This document shows, piece after piece, positions 3,641 to 47,683 of a stretch of DNA of 48,686 nt. Origin of the DNA: Minisyncoccota bacterium (GTDB lineage Bacteria; Patescibacteriota; Minisyncoccia; Phycocordibacterales; Phycocordibacteraceae); the NCBI GenBank assembly GCA_022842585.1, contig JALHPI010000003.1, positions 1-48,686 of the forward strand, given 5' to 3'. The translations under genes and the position numbers were made by a program. Positions within the stretch are counted from its first letter, which is position 1. Every line of letters starts with the position of its first letter. Below the pieces are notes generated by a model. That model was not told where the DNA came from. It did no database searches and was given only the letters and a program-made list of their open reading frames with translations.

Positions 3641-4291
3641 ATGTTTACCGGCATCGTACAGAAAACCGCACTCGTCAAAAGCGCCGCCATGCGCGAGAAG
3701 AACCGCGTCATATCCGTGGAAAAGCCCGCAGGTTGGAAGCTTTCCAAAGGACAGAGCGTCGCCGTTGACGGCGTGTGCCTCACGGTCACAAGCACGACCG
3801 CAAAAACGTTCGAAGCAGAACTGATGCCCGAAACCTTGAAGAAAACGACCGGAAGCTTGTTTGTGGTAGGGAAGCTCGTGAATCTCGAGCGGGCACTGAA
3901 GCTCTCCGACCTCCTCGACGGCCACCTTATTCAAGGGCACGTGGACTCGCGGGCGAAAGTGACTGCCGTACGCGCACAGGGCGCCTCAACCTTGATTACC
4001 ATTTCAATCCCGAAAGCGCTCAAGAAGCAAGTTGCACTCCACGGCTCAGTCGCCGTAAACGGCGCCTCCTTGACCATTGCAAAACAGAACGCGGACACGC
4101 TCACGCTTGCCCTCATCCCGTATACGCTCGCCCATACGAACCTCGGACTCCTCAAAAAAGGGGACGAGGTGAACCTTGAAACGGACTTCTGGGCCCGCCA
4201 TCACAAGGTGAAGAATTATGCTACAGTTTCCCCTAATGCAACGCGGAGAATATCAAAAGGCACGGGAAGCAAAAGACGGCGGAAAGCTTAA
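3641..4291 (+). CDS. ribE: Riboflavin synthase
   Basis: Starts MFTGIV; SVAVDGVCLTV, VNLERAL, GHLIQGHVD. Confidence 0.95.
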   Translation: MFTGIVQKTALVKSAAMREKNRVISVEKPAGWKLSKGQSVAVDGVCLTVTSTTAKTFEAELMPETLKKTTGSLFVVGKLVNLERALKLSDLLDGHLIQGHVDSRAKVTAVRAQGASTLITISIPKALKKQVALHGSVAVNGASLTIAKQNADTLTLALIPYTLAHTNLGLLKKGDEVNLETDFWARHHKVKNYATVSPNATRRISKGTGSKRRRKA

Positions 4292-4694
4292 GATAGGTAT
4301 CGTCGTTTCCTCCTTTAATTCCGACATCACCGAGTCTATGCTCGAAGGAGTACTCGCGACCCTCAAAGAATGGAGTGTAGCGGACGAGAACATTACGGTG
4401 TTCCGTGTACCCGGTTCTTTTGAGATACCGTACGGGTGCCTCAAGCTCATTAAGGAGAAAAAGCCCGACGGTATCATTGCCATCGGTTGCGTGATAAAAG
4501 GCGATACCGAGCACGACCGCTATATCGCAACCGCGACCGCCGACGGTATCATGCGTCTCACACTTCTGTATGAGTTACCAATTTCTTTTGGGGTTATCAC
4601 CACGAACACGCTTGAGCAGGCGAAAATTCGCTCGACCGGAGAGACAAATAAAGGAAAGGAAGCGGCGCTCGCCGTGCTTGAACTTCTCGCCTGA
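4236..4694 (+). CDS. ribH: 6,7-dimethyl-8-ribityllumazine synthase
   Basis: VPGSFEIP, GCVIKGDTEH, FGVITT, NKGKEAA. Confidence 0.95.
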   Translation: MQRGEYQKAREAKDGGKLKIGIVVSSFNSDITESMLEGVLATLKEWSVADENITVFRVPGSFEIPYGCLKLIKEKKPDGIIAIGCVIKGDTEHDRYIATATADGIMRLTLLYELPISFGVITTNTLEQAKIRSTGETNKGKEAALAVLELLA

Positions 4695-5110
4695 TGCGAA
4701 AAGTATTTCTTGCCGGAGGCGTACTTGTGCTCGCAGGGATACTCGGACTTTTCGCACTCAATCACCCGTCGTACTCGCTTGCGCATATTGAAATCGCCGA
4801 TACGCCCTTCGCGCGTGAACAAGGACTTTCCGGCAGAACTGAGATATCGGAAGACTACGGCATGCTGTTCATTTTTCCCGAAAAGGGCGACTACGGGTTT
4901 TGGATGAAAGACATGAAGGTACCTATCGACGTATTCTGGATTGCCGATGATGGAACAATCGTGGGCATCGAGCACGAGCTCAGCCCCGACACCTACCCGG
5001 AAGCGGTGCATCCACCTCTGCCGGTACGCTACGTGCTTGAGACGAAGGCGGGGACTGGAGCGGCGCGCGGATGGGTGGTAGGTACGACCCTTGCACTTCC
5101 TCTTCGTTAA
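4694..5110 (+). CDS. DUF192 family exported protein
   Basis: EIADT...REQGL, GMLFIF, FWMKDM..PID, YVLE; N-terminal hydrophobic segment. Confidence 0.85.
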   Translation: MRKVFLAGGVLVLAGILGLFALNHPSYSLAHIEIADTPFAREQGLSGRTEISEDYGMLFIFPEKGDYGFWMKDMKVPIDVFWIADDGTIVGIEHELSPDTYPEAVHPPLPVRYVLETKAGTGAARGWVVGTTLALPLR

Positions 5111-5113
5111 ACC

Positions 5114-5124
5114 TGTGGTATAAT
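5114..5124 (+). promoter_or_regulatory. Extended -10 promoter for rnpB
   Basis: TGTGG-TATAAT, with the hexamer ending 6 nt before the first P1 base. Confidence 0.75.
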
Positions 5125-5149
5125 TAAGTCGTGCTGGTACAGGCAGTCG

Positions 5150-5275
5150 CCCAGCCCCACTTTTACAGCGCGAAAATTTATTTATCGCCATAGTTGCGAT
5201 AGAAAAATTTCGAACGGGAAAAATTGTCTTGCAGACAATTTTTCCAAAGGATCGTTCTGTAAAAGTGGGGCTGGG
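5150..5275. mobile_element. Non-coding hairpin (MITE-like) element, copy 1, at the P3 position of rnpB
   Basis: Perfect 19-bp IR CCCAGCCCCACTTTTACAG / CTGTAAAAGTGGGGCTGGG with two internal stems. Confidence 0.8.
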
Positions 5276-5293
5276 AGGAAAGTCCGAACACAG

Positions 5294-5420
5294 CCCAGCC
5301 CCACTTTTACGGTGCGAAATTCTACCCATCAACAACTTGATAGTAGAAGAAATTTCGAACGTGAAATGTAGTCTGAAAGACTACATTTCCGAATAATCGT
5401 TCTGTAAAAGTGGGGCTGGG
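5294..5420. mobile_element. Non-coding hairpin (MITE-like) element, copy 2, between P5 and P7 of rnpB
   Basis: 17-bp IR CCCAGCCCCACTTTTAC / GTAAAAGTGGGGCTGGG; junction motifs shared with copy 1. Confidence 0.8.
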
Positions 5421-5590
5421 AGCAGGGTAGCGGGTAACTCCCGTCCGCCGTAAGGCGCGAGGTGCGAACAGAGACGTTCCTAAGCGAAAGCGCGGGAACA
5501 CCCTCCGAATCCGCAAGGAATACGGGGGTGAGCCTGAAGGGTAACCTACAGGCTGAAACGGCAAAATCCTTACCTCTGTGCAAGGCCGTG

Positions 5591-5897
5591 TCCAGCCCCA
5601 GTTTTAGGTACAATGAGCCTATGTTCTCAGTTTATGTAATCCAGCACGACTCTACTAAAGAGATTTATATTGGATTTACAAGCAATCTGCGAAGACGGCT
5701 CATTGAACACCAATCCCGTGGCAATACGTCGACGAAGCGGAAAGTGGGCAAATGGCATCTGATATACGCCGAAGCGTATCGCGCAGAAGCTGATGCTAGG
5801 CTCCGTGAACGTCGACTGAAAAGCCACGGGAGCGGGAAACAAGGGTTAATCAAGCGTATAAAGGCTAGTTTGCTTGATACCTAAAACTGGGGCTGGA
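5591..5897 (+). mobile_element. IR-bounded GIY-YIG cassette in the P15/P16 region of rnpB
   Basis: Perfect 20-bp IR TCCAGCCCCAGTTTTAGGTA / TACCTAAAACTGGGGCTGGA enclosing one ORF. Confidence 0.85.
5621..5884 (+). CDS. Small GIY-YIG nuclease (87 aa)
   Basis: MFSVYVIQ...IYIGFTSNLRRRLIEH...LIYAEAY...ARLRERRLK: the VY/YIG, R and E catalytic pattern. Confidence 0.9.
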   Translation: MFSVYVIQHDSTKEIYIGFTSNLRRRLIEHQSRGNTSTKRKVGKWHLIYAEAYRAEADARLRERRLKSHGSGKQGLIKRIKASLLDT

Positions 5898-5990
5898 AGT
5901 GCCGCTTGAGGCCGTCGGCAACGGCGGTCCTAGATAAATGACTGTCCAACGACAGAATTCGGCTTATCGGACCAGCACGTCAAATGCGAT

Positions 5991-6020
5991 ACACCCGCCT
6001 CACGGCGGGTGTTCGCTTTT
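5991..6020 (+). terminator. Intrinsic terminator after rnpB
   Basis: ACACCCGCC-tcac-GGCGGGTGT followed by a T-rich tract. Confidence 0.7.
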
Positions 6021-6114
6021 CTATATCCACTGTATTTCCTGGCACAGCTCCTATTGACGGATATCTCATGGGGTATACTTGACCCATTACCAACGGGCAC
6101 TTTCAAGGACATAT

Positions 6115-8529
6115 ATGCAGGACACACCTTCGATGAAGCGTTTTTCGTTCGACTCCGCCACTGTGTGGATACTCGCGGCCGTCGCGTTCCTATCCACCGT
6201 AGCGCTTATTCCGGGCAATACCGTCTCATTATTCGGGACTAAGGTATCGATTCTTGCGACCGGCGCGCTCATTGCGCTCATCGCATACATTATTGCGCGT
6301 TTGGTTCGGGGCAATATCGTATTCCCGCCGCTCGCACTTCTTGGGACCGTATGGCTTATACCGATTGCGTACGGCATCTCGACTTTGTTCTCTGGCGTAA
6401 ACCAGACGCAGGCATTGTTCGGCGTTGAGTTCGAAACCGACACACTCGGCTTCGTGCTCATCATGGCAGTGCTCGCAACGCTTGCGGCACTCGCGCTTCG
6501 CCAAGCTTCACACTACGCGCTCTTCTATAAAGCGCTCGGTGCGACCTACGCCGTTGTGGTGCTTGCACAGATAGGATTTATCATCGCGGCTAATAGTGGC
6601 GCACCAGTGAGCGCGGTAACGAATCTCGTCGGTTCATTCTCCGACCTCGGATTTGTCGCAGGACTCGGCATCGTCATGTCGCTTCTCGCGATGCGTTTCC
6701 TCACGCTCTCTCAGAAGGTGAAGATTGCGCTCTGGGTCGCGATTGCCGCAGGTCTCGCACTTGTCGTACTCGCAAACGCGGTACTCGTATGGGTGCTTGT
6801 CGGTCTTGTGTCGCTCGGCCTCTTCATCGAAGCCATTATGCGTCGCCGTGGAAGCGGAAATGACGCGGACCTTGAAGGCGTATCCACGATGTCAGCGGAT
6901 GAGGAATCCGAGGACGCGGGCGGGGAAGCTCGTTCACTCGGTGCACCACTCGTCACGCTTCTCGTATCCCTCTTCTTCCTTATCGGAGGTGCAACCATTG
7001 GAAACTCGATTGCCGCCTCGCTTGGTATCAACGTCATCGACGTCCGCCCATCCTGGCAGTCAACCTTTGACGTCGGTAGCCATACCTATGCTTCTTCACC
7101 GCTCTTTGGCTCCGGCCCAAGCACCTTTGGGGAGCAGTGGCTAAAATATAAGGACCGTGCCCTAAATGACACCGTATTCTGGAACGTTGATTTCGCTTCA
7201 GGCATCGGCTCTATCCCAACTTCGTTCATCACGACCGGTATCGTCGGCGTCCTTGCATGGCTCGTATTCATCGGATTCTTCCTCTACTCGGGAGTCCGTG
7301 CACTCTTGTTCCGTCTCCCTCAGGACCCGTTCATGCGCTTCGTATCGCTCGCATCCTTTACCGGTGCCGCATACGTCCTCGTCGCATCGTTCTTCGCGGC
7401 TCCAGGGGTCGTCGTCGTCGCGCTCGGATTTTTGTTTACCGGTCTCTTCATCTCGTCGCTCCGCTATGGCAAAGGACGTCTTGATTGGGGAATCGTGTTC
7501 TCGAAGAATCCACGCGTCGGCTTCGCCATTGTATTCCTTATGACGCTCATGCTGCTTGCGTCGGTGGCAGCCATCTACGTCGTGCTCGGCCGCTATATGG
7601 CAAGCTCGGCGTACGGAGAAGCTGCTCAGGCGCTTTCTACCGGCAATGTTGATGCCGCGGACGCTGCCGTCGCCCGCTCCGTCACCTTTGCTCCAAGCGA
7701 GCGTGCGTACCAGCTCTCTGCCGCTACCGGTATTGAGCGCATGCGCCGTATCGCGAACGACACCACGCTTTCAGCAAGTGTCGCGCAGCAGCAGTTCCAA
7801 GCAGCACTCTCGGGTGCCGTAAACGCAGGTCTTGCCGCTACACAGGTAGGACCGAACGATTATCAGAACTGGGTCGTGCTCGGTACGGTGTATCAAAGCG
7901 TCGCCTCGCTTGGTATCGCTGGCTCGTATGAGAGCGCGAAGAGCGCGTTCGAGCGCGCGATTGCCCTGAATCCTACAAGCCCGGTCCTTCCGTATGTGAT
8001 TTCCCAGCTTGAAATAGGGAAGAATAACGGAGAAGCGGCAGAAGCAAGCTTGCTCACTTCGGTCAACTTAAAACGAGACTACATTCCAGCAATCCTCTTG
8101 CTTTCACAGCTCAAGATTCAGCTTGGAAAGGCAAGTGAGGCGCTTCAGGCTGCGGAGGCGGCAGCGTACTTCGCTCCAAACGAGCCGGCCGTACTCTTCC
8201 AGGTAGGCATACTCCGCTCAGGAACAGGAGACGTGAGTGGTGCGGTCTCAGCGCTTGCGCGCGCAGTGGAGATAAACCCTCAGTACGCAAATGCCCGCTT
8301 CTTCCTCGGTGCCATGTACTCGATGCAGGGTAAGTATCCTGAAGCACTCGAACAGTTCCGCGCTATCGCAACATTCTCTCCGGAGAACGCGACGGCAGTT
8401 GCTCCGGACATCGCGTCGCTTGAAGGTGGTAAGAATCCGTTCCCTCCGGCCCGTATGAAGTCGCTCGGTATTCCGACACCTCCGGTAACGGAACCAGTAG
8501 CGCCTCAGGCCGCAGCTCCAGCGCCGTAG
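6115..8529 (+). CDS. Polytopic membrane protein (O-antigen ligase-like) with C-terminal TPR repeats
   Basis: Many TM segments, PLFGSGPSTF loop, TPR-like repeats (AFERAIALNP, ARAVEINPQYANARFFLG); start uncertain (6079/6115/6133). Confidence 0.75.
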   Translation: MQDTPSMKRFSFDSATVWILAAVAFLSTVALIPGNTVSLFGTKVSILATGALIALIAYIIARLVRGNIVFPPLALLGTVWLIPIAYGISTLFSGVNQTQALFGVEFETDTLGFVLIMAVLATLAALALRQASHYALFYKALGATYAVVVLAQIGFIIAANSGAPVSAVTNLVGSFSDLGFVAGLGIVMSLLAMRFLTLSQKVKIALWVAIAAGLALVVLANAVLVWVLVGLVSLGLFIEAIMRRRGSGNDADLEGVSTMSADEESEDAGGEARSLGAPLVTLLVSLFFLIGGATIGNSIAASLGINVIDVRPSWQSTFDVGSHTYASSPLFGSGPSTFGEQWLKYKDRALNDTVFWNVDFASGIGSIPTSFITTGIVGVLAWLVFIGFFLYSGVRALLFRLPQDPFMRFVSLASFTGAAYVLVASFFAAPGVVVVALGFLFTGLFISSLRYGKGRLDWGIVFSKNPRVGFAIVFLMTLMLLASVAAIYVVLGRYMASSAYGEAAQALSTGNVDAADAAVARSVTFAPSERAYQLSAATGIERMRRIANDTTLSASVAQQQFQAALSGAVNAGLAATQVGPNDYQNWVVLGTVYQSVASLGIAGSYESAKSAFERAIALNPTSPVLPYVISQLEIGKNNGEAAEASLLTSVNLKRDYIPAILLLSQLKIQLGKASEALQAAEAAAYFAPNEPAVLFQVGILRSGTGDVSGAVSALARAVEINPQYANARFFLGAMYSMQGKYPEALEQFRAIATFSPENATAVAPDIASLEGGKNPFPPARMKSLGIPTPPVTEPVAPQAAAPAP

Positions 8530-47575: not shown

Positions 47576-47683
47576 ACCCAGCCCCACTTTCCAACATGAC
47601 AACTTTTTATGTCGTTTTAAGTTTAAAACTCGGAAACCGTTCTTTCGGTAGTAGAACGACGTATGTGGAAAGTGGAGCTGGGT
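47576..47683. mobile_element. Intergenic member of the CCAGCCCCA hairpin family, upstream of gyrA
   Basis: ACCCAGCCCCACTTTCCA / TGGAAAGTGGAGCTGGGT (one mismatch), AT-rich interior with small stems. Confidence 0.75.

What the first reader, a model, noticed from the sequence alone, without database searches (positions are those of the whole stretch)
5591..5897. Minimal GIY-YIG cassette: a candidate autonomous partner for hairpin MITEs
Seen: a perfect 20-bp IR encloses only an 87-aa GIY-YIG ORF. A TACAAT -10 hexamer overlaps the left IR end and lies 6 nt before the ATG, and the TAA stop is inside the right IR, so expression signals appear built into the ends. No transposase and no obvious target-site duplication were seen. 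Inference: the nuclease may recognise or spread the CCAGCCCCA hairpin family, analogous to RAYT/REP pairs but with a different nuclease fold. Mobility is not shown by the sequence.
Basis: partly seen in the sequence, partly recalled or inferred. Interest (0 to 1): 0.85.

Follow-up and report, generated by a model that had tools for sequence, protein, structure and literature searches.

The report
Nuclease gene inside RNase P RNA
A tiny DNA-cutting enzyme gene, wrapped in a perfect hairpin, sits inside the gene for the RNase P ribozyme of an ultra-small (CPR) bacterium, and it belongs to a wider family of such hairpin cassettes that occupy the tips of ribosomal and other stable RNA genes.

Summary
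In detail: a perfect 20-bp inverted repeat (5591-5610 / 5878-5897) encloses an intact 87-aa GIY-YIG ORF (5621-5884). The cassette lies inside the genome's only RNase P RNA gene (rnpB, about 5131-5985), where same-genus relatives have a short P16/17 hairpin. Two ORF-less 124/125-nt hairpins with the same CCAGCCCCA stem fill two further hairpin positions of that gene.

In the same order, 22 of 48 homologue loci examined are tightly IR-flanked, against 0 of 75 shifted controls. Many carry CCCAGC-type ends. They replace terminal hairpins of 23S, 16S and rnpB, or abut tRNA genes, and 24 of the 26 with a nearby RNA gene lie in the sense orientation.

The protein belongs to the minimal UPF0213/Slx1 branch, and its catalytic residues are invariant.

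My best reading is an intervening-sequence-like, ribozyme-free GIY-YIG hairpin cassette that is co-transcribed with its host stable RNA and behaves as a selfish, homing-like element. Mobility, RNA processing and substrate are all untested. GIY-YIG insertions in CPR rRNA are already published; the rnpB host, the palindromic architecture and the orientation rule appear not to be.

The parts
5116..5124 (+). Extended -10-like motif (TG-n-TATAAT) just upstream of the rnpB 5' end; likely promoter of the whole unit
   Evidence: Read. The same motif stands before the G005 rnpB. The consensus scan, which needs both hexamers, reports 0 sites, so this rests on the sequence alone.
5131..5985 (+). RNase P RNA gene (bacterial type A) interrupted by three large hairpins; the core without them is about 302 nt
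   Evidence: Two sub-threshold Rfam RF00010 pieces: 5802-5975 at 49 bits and 5420-5575 at 23.8 bits, against a cut-off of 100. End-to-end alignment with 11 same-genus rnpB genes that score 101-141 bits. Core identity 68-73%. These are the only RF00010 matches in the genome.
5151..5274 (+). ORF-less hairpin H1 at the P3 position, with stem CCAGCCCCACTTTTAC
   Evidence: Folds as an 18-bp stem plus a three-way junction, -63.3 kcal/mol. Relatives have a 16-24-nt hairpin here.
5275..5289 (+). Conserved RNase P core segment (GAGGAAAGTCCGAAC, 5' strand of P4) between H1 and H2
   Evidence: Nearly invariant in the alignment with 11 relatives.
5295..5419 (+). ORF-less hairpin H2 between P5 and P7. It has the same 16-nt stem as H1 and the same architecture, with different sub-hairpin sequences
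   Evidence: A contig in run X4 carries a 20-nt filler in place of each of H1 and H2, with 0 differences in the flanks.
5591..5610 (+). Left arm of the perfect 20-bp inverted repeat. It is the 5' strand of the helix that stands where relatives have the P16/17 hairpin
5621..5884 (+). 87-aa GIY-YIG nuclease ORF of the minimal UPF0213/Slx1-like type, sense to rnpB
   Evidence: Pfam. Invariant Y5, Y16, G18, R26, H30, E51 and six other residues across 19 relatives. Profile against PDB: UPF0213 BH0048 8.3e-11, SLX1 2e-4, I-TevI 2.3e-3. Model pLDDT 82.9.
5878..5897 (+). Right arm of the inverted repeat; contains the TAA stop codon (5882-5884)
5991..6022 (+). Intrinsic-terminator-like hairpin and T run just after the rnpB 3' end
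47576..47683 (+). ORF-less hairpin of the same stem family (CCAGCCCCACTTTCC ... GGAAAGTGGAGCTGG, one C.A mismatch). It is part of a roughly 190-nt block between the upstream gene and gyrA
   Evidence: None of the 9 relatives examined has this hairpin; in 8 of them the gyrA start follows the upstream stop within about 2-20 nt.

Best explanation
The feature is a 307-bp hairpin cassette nested in the only RNase P RNA gene of a 0.66-Mb CPR (Patescibacteria) genome.

Shown. The 20-bp inverted repeat stands exactly where relatives have the short P16/17 hairpin. The loop carries an intact, sense-oriented gene for a minimal Slx1/UPF0213-type GIY-YIG nuclease. The cassette lies between the rnpB promoter-like motif and the rnpB terminator. 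It belongs to a CPR-wide family of similar palindrome-bounded GIY-YIG cassettes. These replace terminal hairpins of 23S, 16S and rnpB, or sit beside tRNA genes.

Inferred. The ORF has no promoter of its own and is transcribed as part of the stable-RNA precursor. The long helix keeps the insert out of the ribozyme core, as in the intervening sequences (IVS) of 23S rRNA. The helix is probably cut by RNase III, which the genome encodes, releasing a structured mRNA. At the DNA level the cassette persists and spreads as a selfish, homing-like element. The nuclease, probably a symmetric dimer, would cut cassette-free palindromic hairpin sites, and repair would copy the ORF in. This would explain arms that look like two half-sites, the absence of a target duplication, one copy per site, and the same sites being occupied in different families.
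For: rnpB context. Rfam pieces. Alignment with 11 relatives whose rnpB is 283-488 nt long, showing three filled hairpin positions in the window against short hairpins in the relatives.

Same site elsewhere. G005 carries a cassette at the same rnpB site with identical 19-20-nt ends, although the protein is only 55% identical.

Family. Tight IRs occur in 22 of 48 homologue loci of the order and genus, against 0 of 75 shifted controls. They also occur in the four CPR loci from other lineages, L001-L004, and in a second cassette in L004.

Host sites. Of 48 loci, 7 are in or at 23S, 5 in 16S, 2 in rnpB and 12 within 150 nt of a tRNA. The junctions show whole-hairpin replacement.

Orientation. 24 are sense and 2 antisense; 14 of 14 in rRNA or rnpB are sense. 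L001, L002, L004 and L056 are also sense.

Expression signals. No promoter-like site in 4950-6150, and a terminator after rnpB. RNase III is present at C21:3310-3696.

RNA structure. The insert RNA is unusually structured: z -6.45 for the window and z -3.91 for G005.

Selection on the protein. 12 invariant residues, including the catalytic set. The 3 of 3 ORF differences in a 96%-identical contig from another study fall at third codon positions.

Patchy, mobile-like distribution. 107 of 201 order genomes and 43 of 61 genus genomes have homologues, 1-7 per genome. The G005 rnpB core is 87.9% identical to that of G014, which lacks the cassette, but only 68.2% identical to the window's. On the protein tree the rnpB cassettes fall among 23S-borne and tRNA-adjacent ones, and the rnpB label needs 3 changes.

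Dimer. Homodimer model score 0.72 against a best control of 0.44. That mark was reached by 20 of 30 solved homodimers and 1 of 23 solved monomers. The three runs agree in 100% of contacts and the partner pLDDT is 80-81. Slx1 homodimers have been solved, so this pass may reflect likeness to them.

Literature. GIY-YIG ORFs occur in CPR rRNA insertions that are neither group I nor group II introns (PMC11270868, passages read).
Against: No RNA data exist for this organism.

A stem-mismatch test for RNA-level selection was inconclusive: 19 G.U-type against 13 A.C-type mismatches, p 0.38.

26 of 48 homologue loci lack a tight IR, and 22 of 48 have no RNA gene found nearby with my limited methods.

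Homing is not shown. No clean empty allele was recovered. The only candidate is one X1 contig that joins 5590 to 5898, with 30 letters on the shorter side and an unknown filler.

An 87-aa catalytic core has no obvious sequence-reading domain.

The tree rests on 83 columns and many of its forks are open.

A TACAAT 6 nt before the ATG cannot be excluded as a weak internal promoter.
Confidence: 0.65

Rival explanations
1. The cassette is the autonomous member of a REP/RAYT-like or MITE-like system. The nuclease recognises the CCAGCCCCA stem and mobilises the ORF-less hairpins, both the two in rnpB and the intergenic ones.
For: The ORF is flanked by inverted copies of a stem that recurs elsewhere. 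There are 15 exact CCAGCCCCA sites in the genome, 6 of them in rnpB, and hairpins stand upstream of gyrA, rplL and rpsN. G000 and G005, the two genus genomes with this cassette lineage, have 6 and 8 motif hits, against 2 or fewer in the 59 others. The gyrA-upstream hairpin is part of an insertion that none of the 9 relatives examined has. H1 and H2 are replaced by short hairpins in a co-occurring strain.
Against: G000 and G005 are only two lineages, and kin are not independent. Three other cassette lineages have no extra copy of their 12-nt ends in the 5 genomes searched. ORF-less hairpins share only the stem, and their loops of 4 to about 90 nt are unrelated to each other. G009, G236 and G016 have such hairpins without a close cassette. 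GIY-YIG enzymes hydrolyse DNA and are not known to transfer strands (established knowledge of the family, recalled). No target duplication is present.
Confidence: 0.2
2. A host-function model. The small GIY-YIG protein is not selfish. It serves stable-RNA metabolism, for example by cutting the hairpin stem in RNA or acting on stable-RNA genes, and the hairpin is an expression and processing device inside stable-RNA operons.
For: The association with stable-RNA genes is strong and crosses phyla. 26 of 48 CPR loci lie in or near such genes. Among the mostly Bacteroidota loci, 46 of 65 lie 25-141 nt downstream of a same-strand tRNA gene, and 41 of those are tRNA-Met(CAT). The ORFs are intact and the catalytic residues invariant. 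Dunin-Horkawicz et al. 2006 note a fusion of a prokaryotic Slx1-like domain to a TrmH-like tRNA methyltransferase and suggest a role in RNA metabolism (PMC1564403, passages read).
Against: The distribution is patchy: 94 of 201 order genomes and 18 of 61 genus genomes have no match. Copy number varies from 1 to 7. Some copies carry in-frame stops. I know of no GIY-YIG ribonuclease (recalled, not searched exhaustively).
Confidence: 0.12
3. An ordinary helix expansion of a divergent CPR RNase P RNA that happens to contain an open frame, or a decaying relic, with no present function.
For: CPR RNase P RNAs are reported to have large helix extensions and to fall below Rfam cut-offs (PMC8172020, passages read).
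Against: The ORF hits Pfam GIY-YIG at E 1.2e-13. It keeps every invariant residue of the family. It stays intact in G005 at 55% identity, and differences in a near-identical strain are at third codon positions.
Confidence: 0.03

Closest known systems
Intervening sequences (IVS) of bacterial 23S rRNA genes (Salmonella, Leptospira, Coxiella and others; some carry an ORF of the 23S_rRNA_IVP family)
   Same: An insert bounded by long complementary arms replaces the tip of a terminal helix of a stable RNA. It is sporadically distributed, can carry a sense-oriented ORF, and has no ribozyme. One cassette of this family (L004, 81-371) sits at model position 582/583 of the Rfam 23S model; from memory this is the classical helix-25 IVS site, which I did not check. 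The IVS description is from PMC11270868.
   Different: The host here is rnpB, not rRNA. The ORF is a GIY-YIG nuclease. Excision by RNase III without religation, the defining behaviour of an IVS, is untested.
GIY-YIG-encoding 'insertion sequences' of CPR 16S/23S rRNA genes (Brown et al. 2015, as cited in PMC11270868; Tsurumaki et al. 2024, J Bacteriol, PMC11270868)
   Same: Same protein family, same group of organisms, and not group I or II introns. The closest homologue loci found here lie in 23S and 16S.
   Different: In the passages I read, that work catalogues rRNA genes only. The terms 'inverted repeat' and 'hairpin' occur 0 times in its main text. Its supplements, which list the sites, could not be opened. 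The rnpB host, the palindromic arms, the sense-only orientation, the tRNA-flanking copies and the ORF-less hairpins with the same stem are additions made here.
Free-standing and intron-borne GIY-YIG homing endonucleases (I-TevI; T4 Seg proteins, recalled)
   Same: GIY-YIG catalytic domain. Association with conserved genes. Patchy, site-specific occupancy.
   Different: This protein has no DNA-binding domain and is 87 aa rather than about 200 or more. By sequence profile and fold it lies nearer UPF0213/Slx1 than I-TevI. There is no intron, since 264 of the 307 nt are ORF.
REP elements and their RAYT transposase (REPtrons)
   Same: A nuclease gene is flanked by inverted copies of a short palindromic unit that also occurs without the gene elsewhere in the genome.
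   Different: A RAYT is an HUH/Y1 enzyme, whereas this is GIY-YIG. Only about 4 extra hairpins occur per genome. Their loops vary widely. Other cassette lineages have no satellites.
Prokaryotic minimal Slx1-like GIY-YIG proteins (UPF0213: BH0048, EF2693) and eukaryotic Slx1
   Same: These are the best sequence and fold matches. Both are minimal catalytic domains (PMC1564403). Slx1 cuts branched DNA near the branch point (abstracts listed).
   Different: No function is known for the bacterial proteins. Nothing here shows structure-selective cutting.

Membership tests
GIY-YIG nuclease superfamily | Sequence match to the GIY-YIG catalytic domain above the curated cut-off | tested here: met
   PF01541, 51.6 bits against a cut-off of 22.6, E 1.2e-13.
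GIY-YIG nuclease superfamily | Catalytic residues present: the two Tyr of the GIY and YIG motifs, Arg, His and the metal-binding Glu | tested here: met
   Y5, Y16, G18, R26, H30 and E51 are invariant in 19 sequences. Assigning these positions to catalytic roles is from memory of I-TevI and UvrC.
GIY-YIG nuclease superfamily | GIY-YIG alpha/beta fold | tested here: met
   AF2 model pLDDT 82.9. The top Foldseek hits are UPF0213 BH0048 and Slx1 (TMq 0.56-0.64, probability 1.00), but none reaches E 0.001 or better.
Bacterial RNase P RNA, type A (host gene) | Rfam RF00010 score above the gathering cut-off (100 bits) | tested here: not met
   Two pieces at 49 and 23.8 bits. The three inserts break the match. 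The inserts could not be removed and the gene rescored, because joined sequences may not be submitted.
Bacterial RNase P RNA, type A (host gene) | Conserved core segments and P1/P2/P4 pairings collinear with accepted rnpB genes | tested here: met
   End-to-end alignment with 11 same-genus genes that score 101-141 bits, 68-73% identity over the core. The P1 and P4 complementarity was read by eye.
rRNA-type intervening sequence (IVS) | Insert with long complementary arms replacing a terminal helix tip of a stable RNA | tested here: met
rRNA-type intervening sequence (IVS) | Excised from the transcript by RNase III without religation | not testable with these tools
   Only the presence of an RNase III gene is shown. 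No RNA reads of this organism were available.
Group I / group II intron | Ribozyme core | tested here: not met
   No intron family matches in 4000-7000 at E 1 or better. Only 43 nt of the 307 lie outside the ORF.
Homing endonuclease gene | Cleaves the cassette-free allele, with the ORF then copied in by repair | not testable with these tools
   Indirect evidence only: the same sites are occupied in different families, and the distribution is patchy.
MITE / autonomous transposon pair | Terminal inverted repeats shared by autonomous and non-autonomous copies | tested here: inconclusive
   13-16 nt are shared in this lineage. Three other lineages have no non-autonomous copies.
MITE / autonomous transposon pair | Target-site duplication and a transposase | tested here: not met
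   No flanking direct repeat. The only ORF is a hydrolytic nuclease domain.
REP/RAYT | HUH/Y1 (IS200/IS605-like) transposase | tested here: not met
   Pfam gives GIY-YIG, T5orf172 and a weak SPOR hit only.

The most novel reading that the evidence does not exclude
The 87-aa Slx1-like protein is a dimeric, hairpin-specific nuclease that recognises the two-fold symmetric CCAGC-type stem, either as a DNA palindrome or cruciform or as the RNA helix. Together with that stem it would form a new kind of ribozyme-free, protein-dependent 'hairpin cassette' element. The element would colonise helix tips of stable RNAs (23S, 16S, RNase P RNA, tRNA leaders) by splitting or swapping palindromes. It would leave ORF-less satellite hairpins, including some in the 5' leaders of gyrA and ribosomal-protein genes. 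RNase P RNA in these bacteria could then be made in pieces, or carry a translated insert.
Probability: 0.2. Interest if true: 0.85.

Novelty: new variant of a known kind. Interest (0 to 1): 0.68.

Why it matters
I found no report of a protein gene nested in a bacterial RNase P RNA gene. The searches were 'RNase P RNA' + 'Candidate Phyla Radiation' + 'insertion' (2 papers hold all three terms, 1 listed and read in passages: no ORF mentioned) and 'rnpB' + 'intervening sequence' (10 of 11 papers listed; by title mostly on mitochondria and insect endosymbionts, none on an insert in a free-living bacterium's rnpB).

The finding explains why rnpB escapes standard detection in some CPR genomes. It gives the so far unexplained GIY-YIG insertions of CPR rRNA a common anatomy: palindromic arms, whole-hairpin replacement and sense orientation. 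It also gives them a testable mechanism.

It further points to a possible natural role for the large, function-less family of minimal Slx1-like bacterial GIY-YIG proteins, which has 23,659 cluster representatives at E 0.001 or better.

If the RNA is cut at the stems, this would be a naturally fragmented RNase P ribozyme.

Tried and rejected
Promoter. It is not strictly excluded.

Strand test on stems. Counting G.U-type against A.C-type stem mismatches, to tell RNA-level from DNA-level constraint, gave 19 against 13 (p 0.38) and is inconclusive.

Expression.

Empty site. One X1 contig joins 5590 to 5898, skipping exactly the 307 nt. It has only 30 letters on the shorter side and an unknown filler, so it may come from another organism and was not used.

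H1/H2 polymorphism. The long/short difference at H1 and H2 in run X4 could be a single allelic recombination tract rather than two transpositions, so it is not counted as proof of mobility.

Rfam failures. Rfam scans of 20 and then 8 genome-search loci failed internally. 'None found' for 22 loci is therefore weak. A later Rfam call on 7 other loci worked.

Other libraries. NCBIfam gave only sub-threshold hits and PHROGs gave none. The region around 45197, which holds another CCAGCCCCA, matches no RNA family.

Bacteroidota homologues lack tight IRs. Over all 78 loci, 13 reach the score against 1 of 78 shifted controls. Among the CPR loci L001-L003 reach it and L004 scores 10; the other passing loci are mostly repeated terminator-like palindromes. 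The palindromic cassette is therefore a CPR trait, not a trait of the whole protein family.

Brown et al. 2015 is not held. The supplements of PMC11270868 could not be seen and may already list positions or arms of GIY-YIG insertions.
Full report
OBSERVATION

The inverted repeat is as described. Its arms lie at 5591-5610 and 5878-5897: 20 nt, 100% complementary, 267 nt apart. It encloses one ORF, 5621-5884, of 87 codons plus TAA. The ORF matches Pfam GIY-YIG at E 1.2e-13, 51.6 bits against a cut-off of 22.6. TACAAT (5609-5614), the 6-nt gap to the ATG, and the TAA inside the right arm are all there. No direct repeat flanks the arms.

The stem word CCAGCCCCA occurs 10 times in the window against 0.23 expected, and 0 of 100 shuffles reach 10. 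It occurs 15 times in the 657-kb, 35-contig genome. Contigs of public DNA runs cover both junctions without differences. Those runs may include the source sample.

The cassette lies inside an RNase P RNA gene. Rfam finds only two sub-threshold pieces of RNaseP_bact_a: 5802-5975 at 49 bits and 5420-5575 at 23.8 bits, against a cut-off of 100. These are the genome's only matches.

Eleven same-genus rnpB genes, 283-488 nt long and scoring 101-141 bits, align with 5128-5985 from end to end. Identity over the roughly 302-nt core is 68-73%.

The alignment shows three places where relatives have a short hairpin and the window has a large one:
- the P3 position (5151-5274, 124 nt);
- a hairpin between P5 and P7 (5295-5419, 125 nt);
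- the P16/17 position (5591-5897, the GIY-YIG cassette).

All three begin with CCAGCCCCA[C/G]TTTTA and end with its complement. In each case the large hairpin replaces the native hairpin completely, starting at the helix base.

An extended -10-like motif (5116-5124) precedes the gene, and a terminator-like hairpin (5991-6012 plus a T run) follows it. The consensus scan finds no promoter-like site in 4950-6150.

THE FAMILY

With this protein as query, 107 of 201 genomes of the same order have a match at E 1e-5 or better. In the genus, 43 of 61 have a match at E 1e-3 or better. There are 1-7 matches per genome, and the window's own genome has one.

I examined 48 loci, all that the tools returned as sequence.
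- Inverted repeats. 22 of 48 have a tight IR: 12 or more net matches, a left arm ending 35 nt or less before the start, and a right arm starting no later than 10 nt after the stop. This compares with 0 of 75 controls shifted by 450 nt. The arms are 14-31 nt long and 243-284 nt apart, and the stop codon usually lies in the right arm.
- Ends. Many begin CCCAGC[A/C]C or a near variant. So do the cassettes in CPR records of other lineages: L001 (titled Moraniibacteriota, 19 of 19 nt) and the second cassette of L004 (titled Saccharimonadales), with ORF 111-353 and arms 81-99 / 353-371.
- Host sites. 7 are in or at 23S, 5 in 16S, 2 in rnpB (G005 at the same site as here; G166 at P3), 12 within 150 nt of a tRNA gene, and 22 have nothing found nearby. 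The Rfam tool failed on most of these loci.
- Recurring sites. The same 23S hairpin is occupied in L100, L102, L104 and L001. The same 16S hairpin is occupied in L103, L105, L117 and L128. The window's own 23S and 16S have short GNRA-type hairpins at those sites.
- Orientation. 24 are sense and 2 antisense to the RNA gene, and 14 of 14 in rRNA or rnpB are sense.

The mostly Bacteroidota homologues lack tight arms. However, 46 of 65 lie 25-141 nt downstream of a same-strand tRNA gene, and 41 of those are tRNA-Met(CAT). The link to stable-RNA transcription units is therefore wider than CPR, whereas the palindromic cassette is not.

THE PROTEIN

Twelve residues are invariant in 19 relatives, including Y5, Y16, G18, R26, H30 and E51.

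A profile of the alignment matches solved structures in this order: UPF0213 proteins BH0048 (8.3e-11) and EF2693 (9e-8), then Slx1 (2e-4), then the I-TevI catalytic domain (2.3e-3).

The AF2 model (pLDDT 82.9) gives the same order by fold. Slx1 reaches TMq 0.59-0.64 and I-TevI 0.40-0.46, although no Foldseek E-value reaches 0.001.

This is the 'minimal', domain-less Slx1-like branch described by Dunin-Horkawicz et al. 2006. They also note a fusion to a tRNA methyltransferase (PMC1564403, passages read).

A homodimer model scores 0.72 against a best control of 0.44. That mark was reached by 20 of 30 solved homodimers and 1 of 23 solved monomers. The three runs agree in 100% of contacts and the partner pLDDT is 80-81. 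Slx1 homodimers have been solved, so the pass may reflect likeness to them.

The family is large: 23,659 cluster representatives at E 0.001 or better and 4,443 at 1e-10 or better.

SIGNS OF SELECTION AND OF MOVEMENT

G005, in the same genus, has a cassette at the same rnpB position. Its ends are identical over 19-20 nt, but the protein is only 55% identical and the ORF is intact.

The G005 rnpB core is 87.9% identical to that of G014, which has a short hairpin there, and only 68.2% identical to the window's.

On a protein tree of 47 rows and 83 columns, with many open forks, host-site labels cluster: 13 changes against 23.6 in shuffles. The rnpB label, however, needs 3 changes. The window's cassette and G005's fall in a clade with four 23S-borne ones, and G005 groups with two of these to the exclusion of the window (support 97/80). 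G166's cassette falls among tRNA-adjacent ones. This fits movement between host genes, weakly.

A 96%-identical contig from another study (run X5) spans the left junction. Its 3 differences inside the ORF are all at third codon positions.

The insert RNA folds far better than dinucleotide shuffles: z -6.45 here and -3.91 in G005.

THE ORF-LESS HAIRPINS

H1 and H2 share an 18-bp stem and a three-way-junction architecture with different sub-hairpin sequences.

In run X4 a contig with 0 differences in the flanks carries a 20-nt filler in place of each. These form short hairpins that resemble one another. Long and short alleles therefore coexist in nature. A single recombination tract could explain both changes.

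Three further hairpins of about 105 nt, with CCAGCCCCA...TGGAGCTGG stems, lie 30-50 nt upstream of gyrA (window 47576-47683), rplL and rpsN. None of the 9 relatives examined has the gyrA hairpin; in 8 of them the gyrA start follows the upstream stop within about 2-20 nt.

G005 has five more such hairpins, of 40-102 nt. G236, G009 and G016 have one or two, of 30-47 nt. Only the stem is shared; the loops are unrelated. All intergenic copies examined (the 3 in the window's genome, 4 of G005's and G016's) carry the same C.A mismatch in the same orientation, whereas the copies in rnpB pair perfectly. I cannot explain this.

Among 61 genus genomes the motif count is 6 in G000, 8 in G005 and 2 or fewer elsewhere. 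Against generality, three other cassette lineages (in G007, G007/G228 and G246) have no copy of their 12-nt ends other than at the cassette itself.

INTERPRETATION

The anatomy is that of an intervening sequence: a helix-bounded insert replacing a helix tip of a stable RNA. Here it sits in rnpB and carries a nuclease gene. The sense-only orientation, the lack of a promoter-like site, the position between the rnpB promoter motif and terminator, and the presence of RNase III all make co-transcription and stem cleavage the most economical reading. None of these is shown.

At the DNA level, several features fit a homing-like selfish gene better than a transposon: one copy per site, recurrence of the same sites across families, patchiness, no target duplication, and arms that look like the two halves of a palindrome. 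A symmetric dimer cutting the uninterrupted palindrome would account for the arms.

A host role in RNA metabolism is a minority rival.

PRIOR KNOWLEDGE

GIY-YIG ORFs in CPR rRNA insertions that are not introns are published (PMC11270868, passages read; it cites Brown et al. 2015, which is not held). Its authors consider them outside homing.

Divergent CPR RNase P RNAs with large helix extensions are also published (PMC8172020, passages read), with no ORF mentioned in those passages.

Searches for GIY-YIG with MITE and hairpin, with Patescibacteria, and for rnpB with 'intervening sequence' gave nothing closer.

I therefore rate this a new variant of a known kind. The host gene is new, and the family gains a common architecture and an orientation rule, but no mechanism is demonstrated.

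Noticed in passing
window 47576-47683; also own-genome contigs C16 about 7346-7452 and C19 about 2759-2866: Hairpins of about 105 nt lie 30-50 nt upstream of gyrA, rplL and rpsN. All have the stem CCAGCCCCA...TGGAGCTGG and the same C.A mismatch in the same orientation relative to the downstream gene. 4 of G005's intergenic copies and G016's copy show the same mismatch, whereas the copies inside rnpB pair perfectly.
   Followed up: partly
L005-L078 (mostly Bacteroidota records): 46 of 65 homologues lie 25-141 nt downstream of a same-strand tRNA gene, and 41 of those are tRNA-Met(CAT). Several are bracketed by two copies of the same self-complementary terminator-like palindrome, for example L019, L034 and L058.
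   Followed up: partly
L004 (record titled Saccharimonadales), 81-371, 1475-1761 and 2325-2616: One 23S rRNA gene carries two separate GIY-YIG hairpin cassettes and a group I intron-like match (47.1 bits, just under the cut-off of 50).
   Followed up: partly
L085 (G017 rnpB), between the 3' strands of P2 and P4: A same-genus rnpB has a hairpin of about 65 nt with CCAGCACCAACTTTG ends at a fourth position, which is not occupied in the window.
   Followed up: no
window 5152-5273 and 5296-5418, run X4: A strain with identical flanks has 20-nt fillers instead of H1 and H2. Another abundant organism in runs X3 and X4 shares the sequence up to CCAGCCCCAGTTTTA at the P16/17 position and then continues with a different payload.
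   Followed up: partly
L100 (G144) ORF; other matches listed: Some homologues carry one in-frame TGA, TAG or TAA. L100, inside 23S and with a 22-nt IR, has one TGA. I did not check whether this is decay or recoding.
   Followed up: no
one search list (for example P0006, P0015, P0043, P0099): Some representatives are 200-612 aa long, with the GIY-YIG domain at the N-terminus or present twice. These fused forms of the minimal domain were not examined.
   Followed up: no
L142, L154, L145 (G233, G007, G005): Three genus genomes share a cassette with the same 22-nt imperfect arms (beginning TGAATACCGTTAGAG). No RNA family was found nearby in the two that were scanned. Its host site is unknown.
   Followed up: partly
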